This document shows, one piece after another, positions 154-7,968 of a stretch of 35,782 bases of DNA. Source of the stretch: Candidatus Delongbacteria bacterium. Its GTDB lineage: Bacteria > UBA4055. The position numbers were made by a program, and so were the translations under genes. The notes beneath the pieces were generated by a model. It searched no databases. It saw nothing but the letters and a program-made list of their open reading frames with translations, and was not told the origin of the DNA. The stretch is taken from NCBI GenBank assembly GCA_028702975.1, contig JAQVNT010000001.1, positions 1 to 35,782 of the forward strand, read 5' to 3'. Every line of letters begins with the position of its first letter. Positions within the stretch are counted from its first letter, which is position 1.

Positions 154-1308
154 TTAAAAAGATAAAAGAACTGACAATAGCGCACAGACGGCGACATAAA
201 ATCCAACTATGTACCTTTTAATAAAACCTGCTTTATAATTTGACATAAAATACATCCCCATACTCATAAATCCCAGACCGCCTACTGTTACGAACAGCGG
301 AAAGCTGACAAATAAGTATAGAAGAGCCATTCCGGAGTTCATGGTAATTCTATTTATGATAAAAGTACCCCAGAAAGTGAACGATCCGAAAGCCAGCACA
401 TAGATCATGTAGATCGCTTTGCCTTTGTTCTTCTCCTGCTCGTCTATATTTGAGATCACCGCATATACAGCTTTACTTACGAGTTCCGGGATTATGAAAA
501 ACACGGTATAAATGAAAGCTGAGAACCTGTCGCCAGCATCATTATTCTTCTGTTCTTCCATTTCTGATTCGAGATCATCATTATTATCGGTTAGATCCGG
601 TTTGTCTGAACTGTGGGCAAGATATATAATTTCATCTTTATTGAACGACATTTCCGGTAATCGCTCGAACCCTCCTCTGAACCTGAGCCTGGATAAGTTC
701 AGCCCGTATGACTTTATTACTTCAGGGTAATCTTTTCCGTACCTTCTAAGATTCCCGGGAATTCCGTAAAGCCTTAGCCTGTCATTGTAGTTCATGTGCG
801 AATATTCCGAGGTCTTTTCCCTTTCCGGATCGACATTTGCCTGAAGTATCATTATTCCATCCGGTTTGAGTATCTTTTTGAGGTCGCTGATGAGCAGATT
901 AGGTCTGGGGTGTTTCTCAAGTATATAATTACAAATGATGATATCGGCTGAACCGGCTGCGTAATCACTTTTCTTGATCTCGTCCCTCATTCTGAAATCC
1001 GGCCGCGACGAGTAAATGTTGACATCGGAGTTCGGGTACTTTCTGAAAAAATCAGCCGCGACCCCTTCTTCTCCGACATAGAGTATTTTTAGCTCCCCTG
1101 ACAGCATCTGTGTCTTTGACAGCAGGAAAAGAAGCACAGTTCTCTCTTCAGCCGTTGATCCGCAAACGGGGCATATTTGACTCAGTTGTTTGGTAAGCTT
1201 GTATTTCGTCGCTATATAGAATCCCGAACAGAACGGGCAGTAGATGACATCGCCGCGGAAATACTGCTTTTTGTAGAACTCGTAATTATTTCTGATCGTT
1301 GAGAACAT
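154..1308 (-). CDS. Zn-ribbon + class I SAM-dependent methyltransferase fused to a C-terminal polytopic membrane domain (possible RiPP tailoring enzyme)
   Basis: 384-aa ORF. N-terminal CPFC...CPVC four-Cys pair. Rossmann-type MTase-like core (KILYVGEEG, ADIIICNYILEKH, LKPDGIMIL). An acidic linker is followed by about 4 hydrophobic helices in the last ~130 aa. AGGA lies upstream of the ATG. Same strand as the exporter and just downstream of it. Confidence 0.6.
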   Translation of the reverse strand: MFSTIRNNYEFYKKQYFRGDVIYCPFCSGFYIATKYKLTKQLSQICPVCGSTAEERTVLLFLLSKTQMLSGELKILYVGEEGVAADFFRKYPNSDVNIYSSRPDFRMRDEIKKSDYAAGSADIIICNYILEKHPRPNLLISDLKKILKPDGIMILQANVDPEREKTSEYSHMNYNDRLRLYGIPGNLRRYGKDYPEVIKSYGLNLSRLRFRGGFERLPEMSFNKDEIIYLAHSSDKPDLTDNNDDLESEMEEQKNNDAGDRFSAFIYTVFFIIPELVSKAVYAVISNIDEQEKNKGKAIYMIYVLAFGSFTFWGTFIINRITMNSGMALLYLFVSFPLFVTVGGLGFMSMGMYFMSNYKAGFIKRYIVGFYVAVCALLSVLLSF

Positions 1309-1580: not shown

Positions 1581-3779
1581 TTAATTCCCCAGTTCAAGCT
1601 GATTTTTCACAAGATTGTAATAAGCGCCTTTAAGCTCTGCAAGTTCTTTGTGCGTACCTCTTTCAATTAACCTGCCTTTCTCAAGCACTACGATCTGATC
1701 GGCATTTTTTACTGTGCTGAGTCTGTGCGCGACTACAACAACGGTTTTTCCTTTGAAGAACTGATCAAGATTTTCCATTATGACCTTTTCATTATTGGCG
1801 TCAAGCGCATTGGTGGCTTCGTCAAAGAAAATGAATTCCGGATCTTTATAAACCGATCTCGCGATAAGCATTCTCTGTTTTTGACCCTGACTGAGTCCGT
1901 GCCCATCGCCCCCGATCTTTGTATTGTATCCCAAAGGTAGAGTTTCAATAAATTCTTCTATATTCGCAACATGAACCGCATGCTTAAGTTTATCCTTATC
2001 AGGCTTTTCGTCGCTGACGGAAATATTGTTCGCTATCGTATCGGAGAAGATAAAGCCCTCCTGCATGACAACACCGCATTTTTTTCGCCATTCATTGCTG
2101 TTTATGATCTCAAGATCATTCCTGCCTACCTCGATTTTTCCTTTTTGAGGTTTGTAAAATCCAAGAAGAAGTTTGATCAGCGTAGTCTTTCCGCTTCCGC
2201 TTGTGCCCACGATAGCCGTTATCTTCCCTTCAGGTATGGTTAGGTCGATATCCTTCAGCACCCATTCCGATTCAGGTCCTTCATACTGAAACGATACATC
2301 TTTTACCGTCAAAGTTTTATTATCGCCTATATCTTTGATCCTGTCTTCGTTGGTATTCTCCTCATCCTCCTTGTTGTGGATCTCACCGAGCCTTTCTAGA
2401 CTGATCTTTGCGTCCTGCATGGAGTGCATAAAATAAATCAGCTGAGAGACCGGGCTGTTGAGCTGACCGATTATATACTGAACGGATATCATCATACCGA
2501 GCGTCATATCTCCTTTGATAACCGCATAAGCCGAGAGGAAAGTAATAATAATATTCTTGCCCTCATTTATCAGCATACCACCGGAATTCTGGTACTGGTC
2601 GAGGCTAAGACTTTTTACATTGAGCTTGAACAGCTTAGCCTGAATATTCTCCCAGTCCCACCTTTTCTGCTTTTCGCAGGTGTTGAGCTTGATCTCCTGC
2701 ATACCCGTTATCATCTGGATAAGGTTGCTGTTGTTATCGGACATCACCTCGAACTTCTTAATGTCTATCGCTTTTCTTTTCTTTAAAAAAGCTTTTATCC
2801 ATAATACATAGAGAATGCTGCCTATCAGAAATACGAAGAAAATTTTCACGTTATAAATTATCAGGACTATGCTGAAAATCACAAAATTCACTGCCGAAAA
2901 AAGTATGCTCAAAGTCTGATTTGTCAGGAATGATTCGATCCTGTGATGGTCATTGATCCTCTGAAGCAGATCTCCTGTCATCTTTACATCAAAGAAACTG
3001 ATCGGAAGCTTCATCAGCTTGATTAGAAAGTCCGATATGATCGAAATATTGACCCTTGTGCTCAAATGAAGCAGTATCCAGCTCCGAATAAACTCAATAC
3101 CCGCCCTGCCGAAGAAAAGTGCAAGCTGAGCGATAAGGATGATCATTATAAAATTGACATCTTTTGTGTTAATACCCACATCTACGATCGCCTGCGTCAG
3201 GAAAGGGAAAACAAGCTGAATCAAACTCCCGGCCGCCATACCGATAATGAGCTGGACTATCAGTTTTTTGTACGGTTTTACATAATGGATCAGGAATTTG
3301 AAGCTGGTCTTATCAACTTTCTTCTTTTCGTCCTCGATATTATAAAAATCAGGCGAAGGTTCAAGCAGGAGAGCAACTCCGACAGGAACATCGTCAAGCT
3401 TATCCGAAGCCCAGCGCTTCATAAAATCTTCTCTTGAGTGCTTAAGAAGTCCGTGCGCAGGATCAGAAATCCAAACGAATTTATCTGTGATCTTGTAAAC
3501 AACAACGAAATGGTTTTGATTCCAGTGAACAATGCACGGCAGCTGAGAACTGACCATAAGAGAATCATAGCTTATCTTGACCCCTCTAGTTCTGAATCCC
3601 AGCTGTTCGGCTGCGTTACTGATGCTCAAAAGAGATACACCCTCACGGGTCGCGAAAGCCTTTTCCCGCAGTGTCTCCAATGAGTAAGTCTTACCGTAAT
3701 ATTGAGCTACTATGCGCAGAGCTGTAGGACCGCAGTCCATAGCGTCAAGCTGTTTAAAGGTGGGGAAAGACTTCAGCAA
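1581..3779 (-). CDS. Peptidase C39 domain-containing ABC transporter (PCAT; double-glycine leader cleavage and export)
   Basis: 732 aa. N-terminal C39 motif QLDAMDCGPTAL with downstream HWNQNHFVVVY and SDP (Cys/His/Asp). Six-TM ABC membrane domain. Walker A GTSGSGKTT, signature LSQGQKQR, Walker B IFFDEATNALD. TTG start. Confidence 0.93.
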   Translation of the reverse strand: MLKSFPTFKQLDAMDCGPTALRIVAQYYGKTYSLETLREKAFATREGVSLLSISNAAEQLGFRTRGVKISYDSLMVSSQLPCIVHWNQNHFVVVYKITDKFVWISDPAHGLLKHSREDFMKRWASDKLDDVPVGVALLLEPSPDFYNIEDEKKKVDKTSFKFLIHYVKPYKKLIVQLIIGMAAGSLIQLVFPFLTQAIVDVGINTKDVNFIMIILIAQLALFFGRAGIEFIRSWILLHLSTRVNISIISDFLIKLMKLPISFFDVKMTGDLLQRINDHHRIESFLTNQTLSILFSAVNFVIFSIVLIIYNVKIFFVFLIGSILYVLWIKAFLKKRKAIDIKKFEVMSDNNSNLIQMITGMQEIKLNTCEKQKRWDWENIQAKLFKLNVKSLSLDQYQNSGGMLINEGKNIIITFLSAYAVIKGDMTLGMMISVQYIIGQLNSPVSQLIYFMHSMQDAKISLERLGEIHNKEDEENTNEDRIKDIGDNKTLTVKDVSFQYEGPESEWVLKDIDLTIPEGKITAIVGTSGSGKTTLIKLLLGFYKPQKGKIEVGRNDLEIINSNEWRKKCGVVMQEGFIFSDTIANNISVSDEKPDKDKLKHAVHVANIEEFIETLPLGYNTKIGGDGHGLSQGQKQRMLIARSVYKDPEFIFFDEATNALDANNEKVIMENLDQFFKGKTVVVVAHRLSTVKNADQIVVLEKGRLIERGTHKELAELKGAYYNLVKNQLELGN

Positions 3780-3795
3780 TTTACAATCATAATAA

Positions 3796-4968
3796 TTATT
3801 TAATTAAATATTCAAATACTTTTATAACTTTCCCTTTTTCGTCATCGTAATCATCATAGTTATGATAATAGAGCCTATTGTTTACAAAAACAATTTTAAA
3901 TATACTGAAAGCTCCTGAAAAATCATGGTATTCAATTTCGTTAAAACTTACTGTGTTTTGAAAAACTCCATCAGTGTAAATATCTGCAATTAGAATATTA
4001 CTTTTATTTTCATTTCTTTCTTTCGTTGCTAACACCCATAAGTTTTCGTTATTGTCACAATAAATTGTATTAATAACTTTCTTCTTTAATTTCCCAAAGA
4101 GTTTACGCATATCTACATTATTAATTTGGCTCATCCAATCTAATTCAATTTCTGAATAGTATTTTACTCTGGATGAATTCTTTATAGTGTATTTATAATC
4201 GCCCGTGATAATATCATAAACCAATATTTCATAATCGTTTTCCGAGAGCCATGAAATAAATATCTCCCTGCTATTATTACAAATATATGGATAATATTTT
4301 GATCTGGCATCTAATATGCCTTCATGACTGACCTTCTTTTCTGAAATAGTTTTAGTTCTTTTAAAATAATTGTTTAATAAAACAATCTCCATATGGATTT
4401 CATATTTATTATCACCAATTATTTCCTCATCCCATGCAAAAGCTATAAAACTACTCTCGGTTAATTTATTTAATTCATAATAAAACCTGTCTAAAATTGT
4501 TGAATTCAAATAATTACCATCAAGATCAAATTTATTTATTTTGTAATCCCTTAGCGTAACGGCTAATAATGTATCCTGAATAATAATTAGTTTATCGTAA
4601 CCAGACGATTCACCTGGCCCTTTTCCCATTCTAGAAAATGTATTAATATATTCGCCTGCATTGTCATATTTGTATATTAAATTATTATTATCGTATGTTG
4701 AAATGAAGATATTGTCGTTTGAATCTGCAGTTAGTCCAAAAAAGTATTTGGGATTCAAATCATGGATTATTATACTACTATCATACTGATATATCTCAAA
4801 TAAATTGTTCAATTTTATATTCAGATCAGGATTAGCTGGAATATTTTTATTCAAATAAATTAAACCATTCTTATTAGATATTGTTTCATATGTATTATCC
4901 TTATCAGAGCATGAATATAGTAATGTGAAAATCAAAATAACATATATTTGTATAATTCTAACAATCAT
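3796..4968 (-). CDS. 6-bladed beta-propeller (NHL/TolB-like, BF3164/DUF5128-like) lipoprotein, paralogue A
   Basis: Signal peptide plus lipobox LLYSC. GKGPGE motif typical of this propeller family. Aligns over its full length with ORF 6788..7951. The ORF track extends to a TTG at 4992 that overlaps the rSAM stop. I prefer the ATG at 4968. Confidence 0.72.
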   Translation of the reverse strand: MIVRIIQIYVILIFTLLYSCSDKDNTYETISNKNGLIYLNKNIPANPDLNIKLNNLFEIYQYDSSIIIHDLNPKYFFGLTADSNDNIFISTYDNNNLIYKYDNAGEYINTFSRMGKGPGESSGYDKLIIIQDTLLAVTLRDYKINKFDLDGNYLNSTILDRFYYELNKLTESSFIAFAWDEEIIGDNKYEIHMEIVLLNNYFKRTKTISEKKVSHEGILDARSKYYPYICNNSREIFISWLSENDYEILVYDIITGDYKYTIKNSSRVKYYSEIELDWMSQINNVDMRKLFGKLKKKVINTIYCDNNENLWVLATKERNENKSNILIADIYTDGVFQNTVSFNEIEYHDFSGAFSIFKIVFVNNRLYYHNYDDYDDEKGKVIKVFEYLIK

Positions 4969-4988
4969 TTTTATCTCAAAAATTAAAA

Positions 4989-6407
4989 TCAATAATCATA
5001 TTCAAGGAATGCTTTTATTTGATTACTATTTAGCTTCTCCATCAAGTAACACGCTGCTTTAAAAATGGCTATTTTATAATTACAAATTGTAGAGTAATAT
5101 GTATATGTTTCATTGTAATCATTATTGATTCTTACATGTTGTGACAGGCATAAACCCGCGCAAATATTTCTTATTAAACAGTTCTTGCAATCAATTAATT
5201 CATTTGTGTTCTTCATTTTTTTCATATATAAATTAATTTTATTAAAATTAAAACCTGTTTTAATACAACCAATTTTGAATTTACTTGAAGAACATTTGAA
5301 ATCAGTACAAGGATAAAAATCACCTTGACTATCAATAAACACACTTGAGCCGAAAACTGCCATACAAACCGGGCAATTTTCGTTATTAATATTGAGTATT
5401 TTTCTTACAAAAATATGTAATTCTTCATATTTTACGAATTTCTCATTATTCTTTAATTTCTGAATTATAATTTTGGTCAATTCTTTCAGATGATACTCAA
5501 GTATTTCAAATTGACTATTGTATCTTAGTGGGGAAATATTAATACCTGAAGAATGATAAAATGGATTTGAAGATATTGATTTTACACCTAGCGAATCAAA
5601 GTATTTAATATTCTCAGAAAAATATCTGACAGAATACGGTGTCAAAATCATTAAAGCCTTTACAGGAATTTTATTTCTTAACAAAGAAATAAGATTTTTA
5701 TTAATAGTCTCAAAAGAACCATTTCCATTTTTATATTTTCTGTTTTGATCATTACAAATCTTAACACCATCGGATGATACAAGTACATAAAAATTGTATC
5801 TTCTAAAAAATTCAATTATTTCATCGTTAAGAATAGTTCCGTTTGTCGTAATTCCATATTGAATTGCAATATCATTCTTTTTCTCCTCGATATAATCAAC
5901 AATATCTGCTATCAAATTAAATTTTAATAACGGTTCACCGCCGAAAAAATTAATTCTCAAATTCTTGGACAATTTTGGATATTCAAAGATGCAATCTACA
6001 ATTTGCTTTGCAATATTCTCCTCCAGTGTTTTAGACCTTGTATTACCGAAAGATCCATAACAATAACTGCAACGTAGATTACAGTCTTCTGTAATTTCGA
6101 TTGTGATGTCTTTTAATATGTTCATCTCTTTCAAATTGAGTTTAGCACTTAGTTTCTCTGCAATTATAATTTGACTTGAAATCAAATTGTCTTTTAAAAT
6201 AATTAAATCCTCTATTTCTTTAATCGACATTTTGCTAATTCCATCATTGTTGAGCTTTATCTTATATAATGTGTTATACATTGCTTTTTTTATTGGAATA
6301 ACAATTGTAAAATCTAATAAAACGATATAGAAATTTCCATAATAACTAAACACATTCCACTTTTCATCTTCGAAATATGAATGCAATTCTTTTAATTCCT
6401 TTAACAT
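4989..6407 (-). CDS. Radical SAM/SPASM peptide maturase, paralogue A
   Basis: 472 aa. CNLRCSYC (CxxxCxxC), GGEPLL, and a complete SPASM Cys pattern (CMAVFGSSVFIDSQGDFYPC ... CKNCLIRNICAGLC). A ~100-aa N-terminal extension precedes the rSAM core. AAGGAG lies upstream of the ATG. Confidence 0.9.
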   Translation of the reverse strand: MLKELKELHSYFEDEKWNVFSYYGNFYIVLLDFTIVIPIKKAMYNTLYKIKLNNDGISKMSIKEIEDLIILKDNLISSQIIIAEKLSAKLNLKEMNILKDITIEITEDCNLRCSYCYGSFGNTRSKTLEENIAKQIVDCIFEYPKLSKNLRINFFGGEPLLKFNLIADIVDYIEEKKNDIAIQYGITTNGTILNDEIIEFFRRYNFYVLVSSDGVKICNDQNRKYKNGNGSFETINKNLISLLRNKIPVKALMILTPYSVRYFSENIKYFDSLGVKSISSNPFYHSSGINISPLRYNSQFEILEYHLKELTKIIIQKLKNNEKFVKYEELHIFVRKILNINNENCPVCMAVFGSSVFIDSQGDFYPCTDFKCSSSKFKIGCIKTGFNFNKINLYMKKMKNTNELIDCKNCLIRNICAGLCLSQHVRINNDYNETYTYYSTICNYKIAIFKAACYLMEKLNSNQIKAFLEYDY

Positions 6408-6423
6408 ATATTCTCCTTAATAT

Positions 6424-6455
6424 TGTTTAAAGAGGGGTTTGACCCTCTTTAAACA
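6424..6455 (-). terminator. Perfect 13-bp-stem hairpin between precursor A and maturase A (attenuator or mRNA-stabilising element)
   Basis: tgtttaaagaggg (6424-6436) / loop gtttga / ccctctttaaaca (6443-6455). It lies 22 nt after the precursor stop and about 16 nt before the maturase ATG. There is no clean U-tract. Confidence 0.5.
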
Positions 6456-6477
6456 AAAACATGCTACATGTGACAAA

Positions 6478-6627
6478 TCAATTCCAAACTGGTTTTGGTT
6501 TACTCATTACAGTATCGCATGCAGGCGTTATAGTTCCAGGAGTACCATCGTCTACTCCGCCCTTAATCTTTAACCCATCATTTTTTTTTAGGTTAAGAAT
6601 CACATATTTTTTCTTTGCCGTTTTCAT
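6478..6627 (-). CDS. RiPP precursor peptide A, 49 aa, double-glycine leader: MKTAKKKYVILNLKKNDGLKIKGG|VDDGTPGTITPACDTVMSKPKPVWN
   Basis: Hand-translated and absent from the ORF track (under 60 aa). AAGGAG SD lies upstream of the ATG, with an in-frame stop upstream. LKIKGG matches a PCAT cleavage site. A paralogue at 9468..9623 has the same architecture. The + strand ORF 6461..6649 is its antisense shadow. Confidence 0.8.
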   Translation of the reverse strand: MKTAKKKYVILNLKKNDGLKIKGGVDDGTPGTITPACDTVMSKPKPVWN

Positions 6628-6787
6628 TTTTTTTCTCCTTTTTTCTTAGTTAAACTCTTTTTAACCCGCGTCCGGATTTTTTCAAACTGCGCAATCTGCT
6701 AATTATTAATCTGTGTATCGAAGGTTTGTTAGGGTATTTCAAAAAATCTTATTTTTCTTAATCTACTCCTGATTCAACACATTAAAA

Positions 6788-7951
6788 TCATTGCCAGTTG
6801 TAATCAAATACTTTTATCACCCCTCCTTTCTCATCATCATATTTACCAAAATTATGATAATAAATTCTATTATTTTCAAAAACTAATTTAAATATTCTGA
6901 ACGCAGCAGAGAAGTCATGGTATTCAATTTCTTTAACATGTACAGTATTTTGAAATACACCTTTATAGAAAATGTCTGCTTTCAGAACATTTTTCTCACT
7001 ATCCTCTCTATCTTTTGTTGCTAATACCCAAAGATTGCCGTTTTTGTCACAACAAATTGTATTTATGGCTTTTTTCTTCAATTTACTTCCAAACAATTTT
7101 TGCATGTCTATATTATTAAATTTACTCAACCAGTCCATTTCGGAATTGGAATAATATTTGGATCTGAAATTGTTTTTTATCGTGAATTTATACTCACCCG
7201 TAAAAATATCATAAACTAAAATATCATAATCGTTTTCGGATAGCCATGAAATGAATATTTCGCTATTATTATTGCAAATGTATGGATAATATTTTGAAGT
7301 GACCGCAGTAATCCCTTCATGCTTAATCTCTCTGGATAAAATCAATTTCGTTTGTTTGAAATTATTATCTAACAAAACGATCTCCATAGTCACTTCATAA
7401 TTATTTTCTCCGACTATTTTCTCATTCCAAGAAAAACCAAGGAATTTATCATCAGCCAATTTTATGATTGATTCATAGAAACGATCTAAATTTAGAGCAG
7501 CGATGAAATTTCCGTTAAGGTTAAATTTATTTACTTTAAAATCTCTTGTACTTATAGCCAGCAAAATGTCTTTCGAGATAATAAGTTTTTCGTAACCGGA
7601 TGATTCTCCGGGGCCGTTACCTGTTTTAGAAAATGAACTTAAGAAGTTACCTCTGTTGTCGTACCTGTATATCAATCCTTTATTATCTTTTGTTATAACA
7701 AATAAAAACTTTTCATTCGCAGTAAACCCAAAAAAAGACTTAGGATTCAGACCAAGCTCTTGAAGATTACTGTCGAGCTGAGTAATCTCAAATAATTCAT
7801 TCAATTTTACATCTAGAGAAGGATTAGCAGGTATATTTTTGTTCAGGTAAACTATTTCTTCATCATTAGTAATGATTTGGTAAACATTCTGTTTTTCAGA
7901 ACACGATATTAAGGCAATCAATAACGCAAAAAAAACAATCCAAACTTTCAT
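6788..7951 (-). CDS. 6-bladed beta-propeller (NHL/TolB-like, BF3164/DUF5128-like) lipoprotein, paralogue B
   Basis: 387 aa. Signal peptide plus lipobox LISC. GNGPGE motif. Co-linear similarity to 3796..4968 along the whole length. Confidence 0.75.
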   Translation of the reverse strand: MKVWIVFFALLIALISCSEKQNVYQIITNDEEIVYLNKNIPANPSLDVKLNELFEITQLDSNLQELGLNPKSFFGFTANEKFLFVITKDNKGLIYRYDNRGNFLSSFSKTGNGPGESSGYEKLIISKDILLAISTRDFKVNKFNLNGNFIAALNLDRFYESIIKLADDKFLGFSWNEKIVGENNYEVTMEIVLLDNNFKQTKLILSREIKHEGITAVTSKYYPYICNNNSEIFISWLSENDYDILVYDIFTGEYKFTIKNNFRSKYYSNSEMDWLSKFNNIDMQKLFGSKLKKKAINTICCDKNGNLWVLATKDREDSEKNVLKADIFYKGVFQNTVHVKEIEYHDFSAAFRIFKLVFENNRIYYHNFGKYDDEKGGVIKVFDYNWQ

Positions 7952-7968
7952 TCATTTCCCATTTTATG

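What the first reader, a model, noticed from the sequence alone, without database searches (positions are those of the whole stretch)
6478..6627. Unannotated 49-aa double-glycine precursor peptide (module A)
Seen: the ATG at 6627 is preceded by AAGGAG, with an in-frame stop upstream. The translation is MKTAKKKYVILNLKKNDGLKIKGG|VDDGTPGTITPACDTVMSKPKPVWN. The Lys-rich 24-aa leader ends in IKGG, with Ile at -4 and Leu/Ile at -12 and -15. That is the pattern cleaved by C39 peptidase domains (established). The gene is below the 60-aa ORF cutoff, and the ORF track shows only its antisense shadow (6461..6649). The 25-aa core has one Cys, two N-terminal Asp and a KPKPVW tail. Inference: if the maturase forms a thioether, the single Cys allows only one bridge (to an Asp or Thr). 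The Lys/Trp tail alternatively allows streptide- or darobactin-like C-C chemistry.
Basis: partly seen in the sequence, partly recalled or inferred. Interest (0 to 1): 0.8.

Follow-up and report, generated by a model that had tools for sequence, protein, structure and literature searches.

The report
Genuine double-glycine RiPP precursor peptide gene
The 49-codon ORF is a real gene for a small leader-bearing peptide that the adjacent radical-SAM enzyme most likely cross-links and a protease-transporter trims and exports; it is an orphan member of a well-known kind of peptide natural-product cluster, found in an uncultured Delongbacteria genome.

Summary
On the minus strand, 6478-6627 encodes MKTAKKKYVILNLKKNDGLKIKGG|VDDGTPGTITPACDTVMSKPKPVWN, with AAGGAG 7 nt upstream and an in-frame TAA.

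It is coding. A paralogue, pepB (9468-9623), has the same Shine-Dalgarno site and start position. Its differences fall mainly on third codon positions (8/5/21; pN/pS 0.25). Total length differs by two codons.

Each peptide gene precedes its own radical-SAM (rSAM) enzyme of RRE-rSAM-SPASM architecture, closest to CteB and PapB, and its own six-bladed propeller lipoprotein. One C39-ABC transporter with an intact catalytic triad closes the operon.

"Unannotated" is wrong: GenBank lists both peptides as hypothetical proteins.

The leader is only partly canonical. Position -4 is Ile, but -7 is Gly, and -12 is Asn in pepB.

The family is an orphan. Outside this Delongbacteria lineage I found no peptide homologue among 1.84 billion representative proteins or in DNA-motif scans. 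Apart from a 98%-identical strain variant and the paralogue (54%), no rSAM relative exceeds 32% identity.

The most likely chemistry is one thioether from the conserved Cys13, perhaps to the adjacent conserved Asp14. This is inferred, not shown. Lys/Trp chemistry is not conserved in pepB.

Verdict: a real, new member of a known kind, and a moderately interesting genome-mining lead.

The parts
6478..6627 (-). pepA: 49-aa precursor peptide gene (24-aa Lys-rich leader ending IKGG, 25-aa core VDDGTPGTITPACDTVMSKPKPVWN, TGA stop)
6635..6640 (-). Shine-Dalgarno AAGGAG, 7 nt upstream of the pepA ATG. The in-frame TAA is at 6646-6648.
6641..6695 (-). Conserved upstream element shared with pepB (ATTGCGCA..AAAATCCGGACGCGG..AAAAGAG..AACTAAGAAAAA). 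It contains two short palindromes. Probably a 5' UTR or operator.
6423..6456 (-). 14-bp stem-loop between pepA and rSAM A (70-nt spacer folds at -21.4 kcal/mol, z -4.8). There is no U-tract, and the rSAM Shine-Dalgarno site follows directly.
4989..6407 (-). rSAM A: 472-aa peptide maturase with RRE-rSAM-SPASM architecture (CX3CX2C at residue 109, CX2CX5CX3C at residue 407)
3796..4992 (-). Propeller lipoprotein A (lipobox LLYSC). The start is either TTG 4992, which overlaps the rSAM A stop, or ATG 4968. It is 60% identical to propeller B.
1581..3779 (-). C39 peptidase-ABC transporter (PCAT), 732 aa, with catalytic Cys/His/Asp present
9468..9623 (-). pepB: paralogous 51-aa precursor (leader MKQSKKKYLILNLKKEGLKIRGG, core VEEGTPGTTARKCDFGQDLNTGFTPIQY, TAA stop)
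9420..9450 (-). Stem-loop after pepB (71-nt spacer MFE -19.8 kcal/mol, z -4.1; these coordinates are the -18.6 kcal/mol centroid stem). It is homologous to the one after pepA.
7969..9396 (-). rSAM B: 475-aa paralogue, 54% identical to rSAM A
6788..7951 (-). Propeller lipoprotein B (lipobox LISC). The AlphaFold2 model is a six-bladed NHL-like beta-propeller.
9795..10479 (-). Two overlapping 117-aa AraC-type HTH-only proteins upstream of pepB (10126-10479 and 9795-10148). Candidate regulators.
11031..13190 (-). 719-aa HTH + TPR protein at the head of the gene row. Candidate regulator.

Best explanation

Shown by sequence:
- It is the first gene of one of two old tandem modules, each made of a peptide gene, an rSAM maturase and a propeller lipoprotein.
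- The two modules share one downstream C39-ABC exporter.

Inferred mechanism:
1. The Lys-rich leader, probably its YVILNL stretch, docks as a beta-strand on the N-terminal RRE (RiPP recognition element) of rSAM A.
2. rSAM A generates a 5'-deoxyadenosyl radical and makes one cross-link. Most likely this is a thioether from the only Cys, which sits at core position 13 in both paralogues, to a nearby acceptor.
3. The only acceptor conserved C-terminal to that Cys is the adjacent Asp14. PapB forms this C-X0-D link in vitro. Asp/Glu2-3 and Thr5/8 are alternative acceptors.
4. The C39 domain cuts after IKGG, and the ABC transporter moves the 25-residue product across the inner membrane.
5. The module-specific lipoprotein propeller probably binds its cognate peptide in the periplasm or at the surface, as an immunity protein or a receptor. 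This step is the least certain.
6. The stem-loop between pepA and the rSAM gene probably lets peptide mRNA accumulate in excess over maturase mRNA.
For: Coding:
- Shine-Dalgarno site and ATG sit at homologous positions in A and B.
- In the alignable 37 codons there are 34 nucleotide differences, split 8/5/21 by codon position. pS is 0.74 and pN 0.185. Amino-acid identity is 26/37, against 0 of 20,000 random placements reaching that level.
- Replacements are conservative (mean BLOSUM62 +0.45).
- Total gene length differs by 6 nt, two codons (150 vs 156 nt).
- Public gene callers and GenBank call both genes.

Context:
- The rSAM has CX3CX2C and the SPASM motif CX2CX5CX3C.
- Its best NCBIfam hits form thioethers (PapB, SCIFF maturase, QhpD) or belong to Cys-rich-peptide maturases (CcpM): PapB 206 bits, CcpM 180, SCIFF maturase 161, QhpD 159. 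DynA scores 117.
- Its best PDB match is CteB, at E 9e-33 by sequence.
- The AlphaFold2 model (pLDDT 86) aligns to CteB over 460 of 472 columns with TM 0.73-0.82. Its N-terminus has three beta-strands flanked by helices (H2-14, E17-39, H41-51, H62-77), consistent with an RRE.
- The C39 domain aligns to LahT150 and PCAT1 with Cys, His and Asp in place.
- Cores share V[DE][DE]GTPGT....CD and then diverge completely, the usual RiPP pattern.
- PapB cross-links C-Xn-D for n = 0-6 (PMC9413430).
- The propeller model (pLDDT 76) matches B. fragilis BF0058, NHL domains and the Bacteroides ligand-binding lipoproteins BT2095 and XusB.
- The hairpins fold far better than shuffled sequence.
Against: - There is no expression, mass-spectrometry or cleavage data.
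- There are no homologues outside one Delongbacteria lineage, so the only comparative evidence is the A/B paralogue pair.
- The two sampled strains are 98-100% identical across the cassette, so they add no information.
- The pN/pS test cannot tell the strand. The antisense frame with coincident third positions scores 0.23. The strand call rests on the Shine-Dalgarno site, the start positions, the operon direction and the nature of the replacements.
- Every rSAM family hit is below its curated cut-off. rSAM chemistry is poorly predicted at 30% identity or less.
- The leader lacks the hydrophobic residue at -7, and in pepB also at -12.
- C-X0-D was processed incompletely by PapB (PMC9413430).
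- No membrane-fusion or outer-membrane component is nearby, so the final location of the peptide is unknown.
Confidence: 0.8

Rival explanations
1. The gene is the same precursor, but the rSAM enzymes install a non-thioether link. This could be C-C or C-O chemistry on aromatic, Lys or other side chains (streptide, darobactin/dynobactin or cyclophane type), or an epimerisation. The conserved Cys would then have another role.
For: - pepA has K19/K21 and W24. pepB has F15, F23 and Y28.
- DynA (117 bits) and cyclophane-forming maturases (GrrM 87, AmcB 84) also score.
- All hits are below their cut-offs, and the nearest non-paralogous relatives are at most 32% identical.
Against: - Aromatic and Lys residues are not conserved between the two cores, whereas Cys13-Asp14 is.
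- Thioether formers score highest.
- The structural match is much better to CteB (TM 0.75) than to SuiB (TM 0.55, rmsd above 15 Å).
Confidence: 0.17
2. The modified peptide is not a free bacteriocin or signal. It is a dedicated partner of its module's propeller lipoprotein, either a tightly bound ligand or a cross-linked small subunit. The analogy is the QhpC gamma subunit, which the rSAM enzyme QhpD cross-links, an ABC transporter exports, and which then assembles with a propeller subunit.
For: - One propeller lipoprotein is co-duplicated with each peptide/rSAM pair.
- QhpD is among the better rSAM hits at 159 bits.
- AraC-type regulators are present, as in qhp operons.
- There are no outer-membrane export components in the cluster.
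- The propeller resembles ligand-binding Bacteroides lipoproteins.
Against: - The QhpD score is far below its cut-off of 453.
- There is no haem subunit or QhpG/QhpE-like gene.
- The propeller is a six-bladed NHL type.
- pepB has no Trp for a quinone cofactor.
- Distant propeller homologues are not in RiPP contexts.
Confidence: 0.1
3. pepA is an unmodified double-glycine peptide (a class II bacteriocin or pheromone) that is only cleaved and exported. The rSAM enzymes act on a different substrate.
For: Unmodified GG-leader peptides exported by PCATs are common (PMC10885120).
Against: - Each peptide gene sits 70 nt upstream of its own rSAM enzyme, which has an RRE-like N-terminal domain, and the pairing was kept through duplication.
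- No other candidate substrate ORF was found.
Confidence: 0.04
4. There is no gene on the minus strand. The conserved sequence is non-coding, or the plus-strand ORF 6461..6649 is the real gene.
For: The antisense frame has no stops and shows pN/pS 0.23.
Against: - The antisense ORF has no Shine-Dalgarno site.
- Its starts are not homologous between modules, and its length varies: 62 aa in A, 111 aa in B, and 67 aa for B in the other strain.
- It runs opposite to the operon.
- Its replacements are less conservative (mean BLOSUM62 -0.36 against +0.45).
- Equal pN/pS is the expected artefact of coincident third codon positions.
Confidence: 0.02

Closest known systems
Ranthipeptides made by PapB (freyrasin, PapA) and CteB (thermocellin, a SCIFF peptide)
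   Same: The maturase has the same RRE-rSAM-SPASM architecture. PapB is the best NCBIfam hit (206 bits). CteB is the best PDB hit by sequence and by fold. A Cys followed by Asp is conserved in the core, and PapB accepts C-Xn-D with n = 0-6 (PMC9413430).
   Different: - The score is below the PapB cut-off of 340, and identity to the nearest non-paralogous homologues in the protein search is at most 32%.
- There is one Cys instead of six.
- There is no CX3D repeat and no SCIFF motif.
- The cluster has a GG leader, a PCAT and a propeller lipoprotein.
GG-Bacteroidales system (TIGR04148 maturase with TIGR04149 precursor)
   Same: A short Lys-rich leader ends in ..IKGG. The host is in the FCB-group lineage (from memory; taxonomy not confirmed). 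An rSAM/SPASM maturase and a C39 processing/export protein are present.
   Different: The TIGR04149 model does not hit either peptide even at E up to 1. TIGR04148 matches only the rSAM core (99 bits against a cut-off of 300).
Nif11/NHLP and other double-glycine RiPP precursors exported by PCATs (LahT, PCAT1, ComA)
   Same: The leader has a GG cleavage motif with Ile at -4. The C39-ABC transporter has its catalytic triad aligned to LahT150 (E 4e-22) and PCAT1.
   Different: The leader is only 23-24 aa. Position -7 is Gly. Position -12 is not conserved between the paralogues (PMC10885120).
QhpC/QhpD (quinohemoprotein amine dehydrogenase gamma-subunit maturation)
   Same: An rSAM/SPASM enzyme makes Cys-to-Asp/Glu thioethers in a small leader-bearing polypeptide. 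That polypeptide is exported by an ABC transporter to meet a propeller protein. An AraC-type regulator is present (background from memory).
   Different: The score is 159 bits against a cut-off of 453. There are no haem, QhpG or QhpE genes. The propeller is a six-bladed NHL-like lipoprotein.
Single-Cys rSAM RiPPs such as KgrA (enteropeptin)
   Same: The core has a single Cys and is processed by an rSAM enzyme. The literature notes such cases are too few to train predictors (PMC10288494). From memory, the enteropeptin link joins adjacent residues.
   Different: There is no sequence relationship. KgrC is a different rSAM lineage, and that system uses neither a GG leader nor a PCAT.

Membership tests
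Double-glycine leader peptide / PCAT substrate | Leader of about 15-30 aa ending in GG, GA or GS | tested here: met
   The leader is 24 aa ending IKGG in pepA and 23 aa ending IRGG in pepB.
Double-glycine leader peptide / PCAT substrate | Hydrophobic residues at -4, -7 and -12 (and -15) (PMC10885120) | tested here: inconclusive
   Position -4 is Ile in both. Position -7 is Gly in both. Position -12 is Leu in A but Asn in B. Position -15 is Ile/Leu.
Double-glycine leader peptide / PCAT substrate | Cognate ABC transporter with a catalytically competent N-terminal C39 domain in the same cluster | tested here: met
   PF03412 hits at 7.6e-35. Cys16, the His of HWNQNHF and the Asp of SDPA align to LahT150 and PCAT1. 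The domain is also intact in the second strain.
Double-glycine leader peptide / PCAT substrate | Cleavage after GG concomitant with export | not testable with these tools
   This needs an in-vitro C39 assay or peptidomics.
TIGR04149 / TIGR04148 GG-Bacteroidales system | Precursor and maturase reach the curated HMM cut-offs | tested here: not met
   The peptides have no NCBIfam hit at E up to 1. TIGR04148 scores 99 bits against a cut-off of 300 and covers only residues 92-248.
PapB-family ranthipeptide maturase (NF047865) | Score at or above the curated cut-off of 340 bits | tested here: not met
   rSAM A scores 205.6 bits and rSAM B 185 bits. PapB is the best hit for both, but both fall below the cut-off.
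Ranthipeptide (class) | RRE-rSAM-SPASM maturase with two auxiliary-cluster Cys motifs | tested here: met
   CX3CX2C at residue 109 and CX2CX5CX3C at residue 407. The model aligns full-length to CteB at TM 0.73-0.82.
Ranthipeptide (class) | Thioether from Cys S to a non-alpha carbon of Asp, Glu, Thr or similar | not testable with these tools
   Only the prerequisite is present: a conserved Cys13 followed by a conserved Asp14.
SCIFF (six Cys in forty-five) | Cys-rich C-terminal core motif | tested here: not met
   The core has a single Cys. The SCIFF maturase model scores 161 bits against a cut-off of 425.
Streptide / darobactin-type C-C or C-O cross-linked RiPPs | Conserved Lys/Trp (or aromatic) cross-link motif in the core, with a matching maturase model | tested here: not met
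   KPKPVW occurs only in pepA. pepB has no Trp in its core and no Lys after Cys13. DynA scores 117 against 450 and DarW 68 against 650. SuiB fold TM is 0.55.
PF17170 (DUF5128) six-bladed beta-propeller lipoproteins | Pfam model hit, six-bladed propeller fold and a lipoprotein signal | tested here: inconclusive
   There is no direct PF17170 hit at E up to 1. The homologue P0125 (29% identical, E 2e-27) does carry PF17170. The model's top PDB match is BF0058 (4raa), followed by NHL propellers. Lipoboxes LISC and LYSC are present.

The most novel reading that the evidence does not exclude
pepA and pepB would found a new RiPP family with two unusual features.
1. A deeply divergent RRE-rSAM-SPASM enzyme makes a single, minimal cross-link from the conserved Cys13. 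The link would be either a 7-membered ring to the adjacent Asp14 or an 11-12-residue macrocycle back to Asp/Glu2-3.
2. The product is made for a dedicated, co-duplicated six-bladed propeller lipoprotein. That protein would act as a cognate periplasmic or surface receptor, or as a holo-protein partner, rather than the peptide acting only as a free bacteriocin.

The 6-kb two-module cassette is also nearly identical in strains whose flanks differ by 10-35%. That would suggest recent horizontal exchange of the whole peptide/enzyme/binder unit.
Probability: 0.15. Interest if true: 0.7.

Novelty: new member of a known kind. Interest (0 to 1): 0.45.

Why it matters
- It adds a verified-by-sequence precursor to an orphan radical-SAM RiPP cluster from a candidate phylum (Delongbacteria) for which I found no published work on radical-SAM chemistry.
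- Single-Cys cores are rare among rSAM thioether peptides and are poorly handled by current predictors (PMC10288494).
- The conserved adjacent Cys-Asp pair gives a concrete, cheap experiment: co-expression followed by high-resolution mass spectrometry.
- The module-specific propeller lipoprotein is a testable candidate for a peptide-binding immunity or receptor protein.
- Otherwise this is an ordinary example of GG-leader / rSAM / PCAT logic.

Tried and rejected
Searches for relatives that found nothing useful:
1. Word-indexed search of 5.8 billion proteins with pepA returned only itself.
2. A full HMMER profile search (pepA + pepB) of 1.84 billion representatives returned only pepA and pepB.
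3. DNA-pattern scans for GGV[DE][DE]GTPGT in 596 Gb of genomes and in the metagenome collection returned only Delongbacteria loci and hits that were not followed up or were chance matches. For example, L018 lies in another frame of a larger, unrelated ORF.
5. An orthologue-level dN/dS test failed. The only other strain is 98-100% identical across the modules, with 1 synonymous change in pepA.
6. The nearest non-paralogous rSAM relatives (at most 32% identity) have unrelated Cys-rich precursors or other contexts.
7. Distant propeller homologues P0125 and P0126 sit on short contigs with no RiPP genes. The methyltransferase next to P0125 is unrelated to the one in the window.
8. Rfam finds nothing credible in the pepA flanks and no SECIS-type match.
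9. The 5' conserved element does not fold better than shuffled sequence (z -0.8 and -0.4), so I reject a structured-RNA reading in favour of an operator or plain UTR.

Readings rejected:
- Selenocysteine read-through of the pepA TGA. pepB has the same downstream hairpin but stops at TAA.
- The antisense ORF as the real gene (see rival explanations).

Full report
**1. What is there**

The minus-strand ORF 6478-6627 reads MKTAKKKYVILNLKKNDGLKIKGGVDDGTPGTITPACDTVMSKPKPVWN*, exactly as reported. AAGGAG lies at 6635-6640, 7 nt before the ATG. An in-frame TAA lies at 6646-6648. The plus-strand 'shadow' ORF 6461..6649 is also present.

The window is contig JAQVBO010000003.1 of a Candidatus Delongbacteria metagenome-assembled genome, GCA_028690285.1. 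L002 is 100% identical to it.

The gene is not unannotated in public data. It is MDD3043990.1, 'hypothetical protein PHF33_00835', and was called on 11 contigs. Its paralogue is MDD3043993.1.

**2. Is it more than chance?**

An ORF of this size means nothing in this AT-rich DNA: there are 127 ORFs of at least 30 aa in 16 kb. Other features do carry weight.

- Only six ATG-ORFs of 25-90 aa in the whole window have a Shine-Dalgarno-like motif. Two of them are this ORF and a second one at 9468-9623, pepB: MKQSKKKYLILNLKKEGLKIRGGVEEGTPGTTARKCDFGQDLNTGFTPIQY.
- The two modules are old duplicates, about 67% identical at the nucleotide level over 2.9 kb.
- Over the alignable 37 codons (Met1 to the conserved Cys-Asp) there are 34 nucleotide differences, distributed 8/5/21 over codon positions. 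pS is 0.74 and pN 0.185. Amino-acid identity is 26/37. Random placement of the same number of changes never reached that identity (0 of 20,000).
- The Shine-Dalgarno site and ATG are at homologous positions. Total gene length differs by 6 nt, two codons (150 vs 156 nt).

One caveat applies. The antisense frame whose third positions coincide with the sense frame scores the same pN/pS (0.23), so this test does not identify the strand. The strand is settled by other evidence:

- The antisense ORF has no Shine-Dalgarno site.
- Its starts are not homologous, and its length varies: 62 aa in A, 111 aa in B, and 67 aa for B in the other strain.
- It runs against the operon.
- Its replacements are less conservative, with mean BLOSUM62 of -0.36 against +0.45 for the sense frame.

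**3. Surroundings**

All genes below are on the minus strand, in order:

| Gene | Coordinates |
|---|---|
| HTH-TPR protein | 11031-13190 |
| Small ORF (53 aa) | 10739-10900 |
| Small ORF (77 aa) | 10480-10713 |
| Two AraC-type HTH proteins | 9795-10479 |
| pepB | 9468-9623 |
| rSAM B | 7969-9396 |
| Propeller lipoprotein B | 6788-7951 |
| pepA | 6478-6627 |
| rSAM A | 4989-6407 |
| Propeller lipoprotein A | 3796-4992 |
| C39-ABC transporter | 1581-3779 |

*The rSAM enzymes.*
- They carry CX3CX2C and the SPASM motif CX2CX5CX3C.
- Their best family models are PapB (206 bits), CcpM (180), the Nif11-peptide maturase (172), the SCIFF maturase (161) and QhpD (159). All are below their curated cut-offs.
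- The best solved structure is CteB, at E 9e-33.
- An AlphaFold2 model (pLDDT 86, pTM 0.88) aligns to CteB over 460 of 472 columns with TM 0.73-0.82. Its N-terminus has three beta-strands flanked by helices (H2-14, E17-39, H41-51, H62-77), consistent with an RRE.

*The C39 domain.* It aligns to LahT150 (E 4e-22) and PCAT1 with the catalytic Cys, His and Asp in place. It is also intact in the second strain, where the gene caller had merely chosen a late start.

*The propellers.*
- They have lipoboxes.
- They have almost no relatives: the paralogue at 60%, and then two proteins at or below 29% identity that carry PF17170.
- The model (pLDDT 76) is a six-bladed NHL-like propeller. Its best matches are B. 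fragilis BF0058, NHL domains, and the Bacteroides ligand-binding lipoproteins BT2095 and XusB.

**4. Regulatory and RNA features**

About 55 nt upstream of both peptide genes is conserved. A 15-mer within it, AAAATCCGGACGCGG, occurs only at these two places in the window. The region does not fold better than shuffled sequence, so I read it as an operator or plain UTR rather than a structured RNA.

Each peptide gene is followed by a strong stem-loop: the A spacer folds at -21.4 kcal/mol (z -4.8) and the B spacer at -19.8 kcal/mol (z -4.1). Neither has a U-tract, and the rSAM Shine-Dalgarno site follows directly. From general knowledge of lantibiotic operons, such hairpins between the structural gene and the biosynthetic genes give an excess of precursor mRNA. 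That is an inference here.

**5. The leader**

Positions -1 and -2 are GG, and -4 is Ile. Position -7 is Gly in both peptides. A one-codon indel shifts the YxILNL block, so -12 is Leu in A but Asn in B.

LahT-type C39 domains need hydrophobic residues at -4, -7 and -12 (PMC10885120). The leader is therefore double-glycine type, but not canonical. The upstream hydrophobic block may serve the RRE rather than the protease. That is an inference.

**6. The chemistry (inferred)**

The two cores share V-[DE]-[DE]-G-T-P-G-T, then Cys13-Asp14, and are unalignable afterwards. The following points favour one thioether from Cys13:

- It is the only Cys.
- It sits at the same core position in both paralogues.
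- The closest enzyme models form thioethers or belong to Cys-rich-peptide maturases.

In characterised ranthipeptides the Cys lies N-terminal to its acceptor. The only conserved acceptor downstream of Cys13 is the adjacent Asp14. PapB does form C-X0-D links, although incompletely (PMC9413430). Links back to Asp/Glu2-3 or Thr5/8 would give an 11-12-residue ring.

pepB has no Trp in its core and no Lys after Cys13. DynA, DarW and SuiB match less well.

**7. Distribution**

- No peptide homologue exists among 5.8 billion clustered proteins or 1.84 billion representatives.
- DNA-motif scans of genomes and metagenomes found none beyond this Delongbacteria lineage.
- Apart from a 98%-identical strain variant, the rSAM's nearest relative after its paralogue (54%) is at most 32% identical.
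- Neighbours of those distant relatives have different, Cys-rich precursors. One is a Salinivirgaceae GG-leader peptide.

Both keep the ORF.

**8. Verdict**

This is a real precursor gene in an orphan cluster of known logic: GG leader, RRE-rSAM-SPASM maturase and a PCAT exporter. It is a new member of a known kind.

Three aspects are unusual. The core has a single Cys with a conserved adjacent Asp. Each module has its own propeller lipoprotein. The cassette is almost identical between otherwise diverged strains.

Interest is 0.45. It is a good genome-mining lead with a cheap decisive experiment, but a specialist would not find it surprising.

Noticed in passing
window 3650-9650 versus L001 (JGI 3300010350 contig): The identity between strains is sharply mosaic. 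The two RiPP modules (pepB 5' UTR through propeller A) are 98-100% identical at the nucleotide level. The upstream regulators are only 64-83% identical and the C39-ABC gene 80-92%. This suggests recent exchange or a sweep of the 6-kb cassette.
   Followed up: partly
window 13242-13337 (-): Rfam calls a tRNA-Sec (56 bits, gathering score 47) directly upstream of the HTH-TPR gene. ARAGORN did not call it. In L001 a 2.6-kb segment carrying a 797-aa Spermine_synth-domain gene lies between the tRNA and the regulator. This looks like a possible integration hot spot.
   Followed up: partly
window 6427-6480 (-): pepA stops at TGA, next to hairpins, in a genome that has a tRNA-Sec. Read-through would add U-FVTCSMFLFKEGQTPL. 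I judge this a coincidence: pepB has the same hairpin but a TAA stop, and no Rfam SECIS-type match was found.
   Followed up: partly
window 6641-6695 and 9638-9691 (-): A conserved upstream element has two short palindromes (AATTGCGCAATT in B, and AATCCG-GACG-CGGATT). A 15-mer within it is unique to these two sites. It is a candidate operator for the adjacent AraC-type or HTH-TPR proteins. A sigma-70-like TTGACA-17-TAAATT lies at 9728-9700, just upstream in module B only.
   Followed up: partly
window 6478-6627, antisense frame: The antisense frame with coincident third codon positions gives the same pN/pS (0.23) as the true frame (0.25). Paralogue dN/dS alone therefore cannot assign the strand of a small ORF.
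   Followed up: yes
window 9795-10148 and 10126-10479 (-): Two tandem, overlapping 117-aa proteins consist of little more than an AraC-type HTH_18 domain. In the other strain the first is 111 aa.
   Followed up: no
window 10739-10900 (-): A 53-aa secreted peptide has a signal sequence, a WXXGXW-repeat hit and a Pro-rich tail. It is only 65% identical at the nucleotide level between strains, which makes it the most diverged gene of the row.
   Followed up: no
window 154-1308 (-): A 384-aa protein with weak methyltransferase-domain hits and a hydrophobic C-terminal half follows the ABC gene. It is absent from the related strain, where homology ends near 1368. It is probably not part of the cluster.
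   Followed up: partly
pepB variants P0122, P0128, P0129 (L001/L017/L020 and short contigs): Natural variants of pepB exist: core F15P (the residue right after Cys-Asp), leader Y8N, and leader L18F. The Cys-Asp pair and the GG motif are invariant.
   Followed up: partly
window 4968-4992 (-): The start of propeller A is ambiguous. TTG at 4992 overlaps the rSAM A stop by 4 nt, which would suggest translational coupling. ATG at 4968 gives a normal lipoprotein signal peptide. Public gene callers disagree, giving 398 or 390 aa.
   Followed up: no
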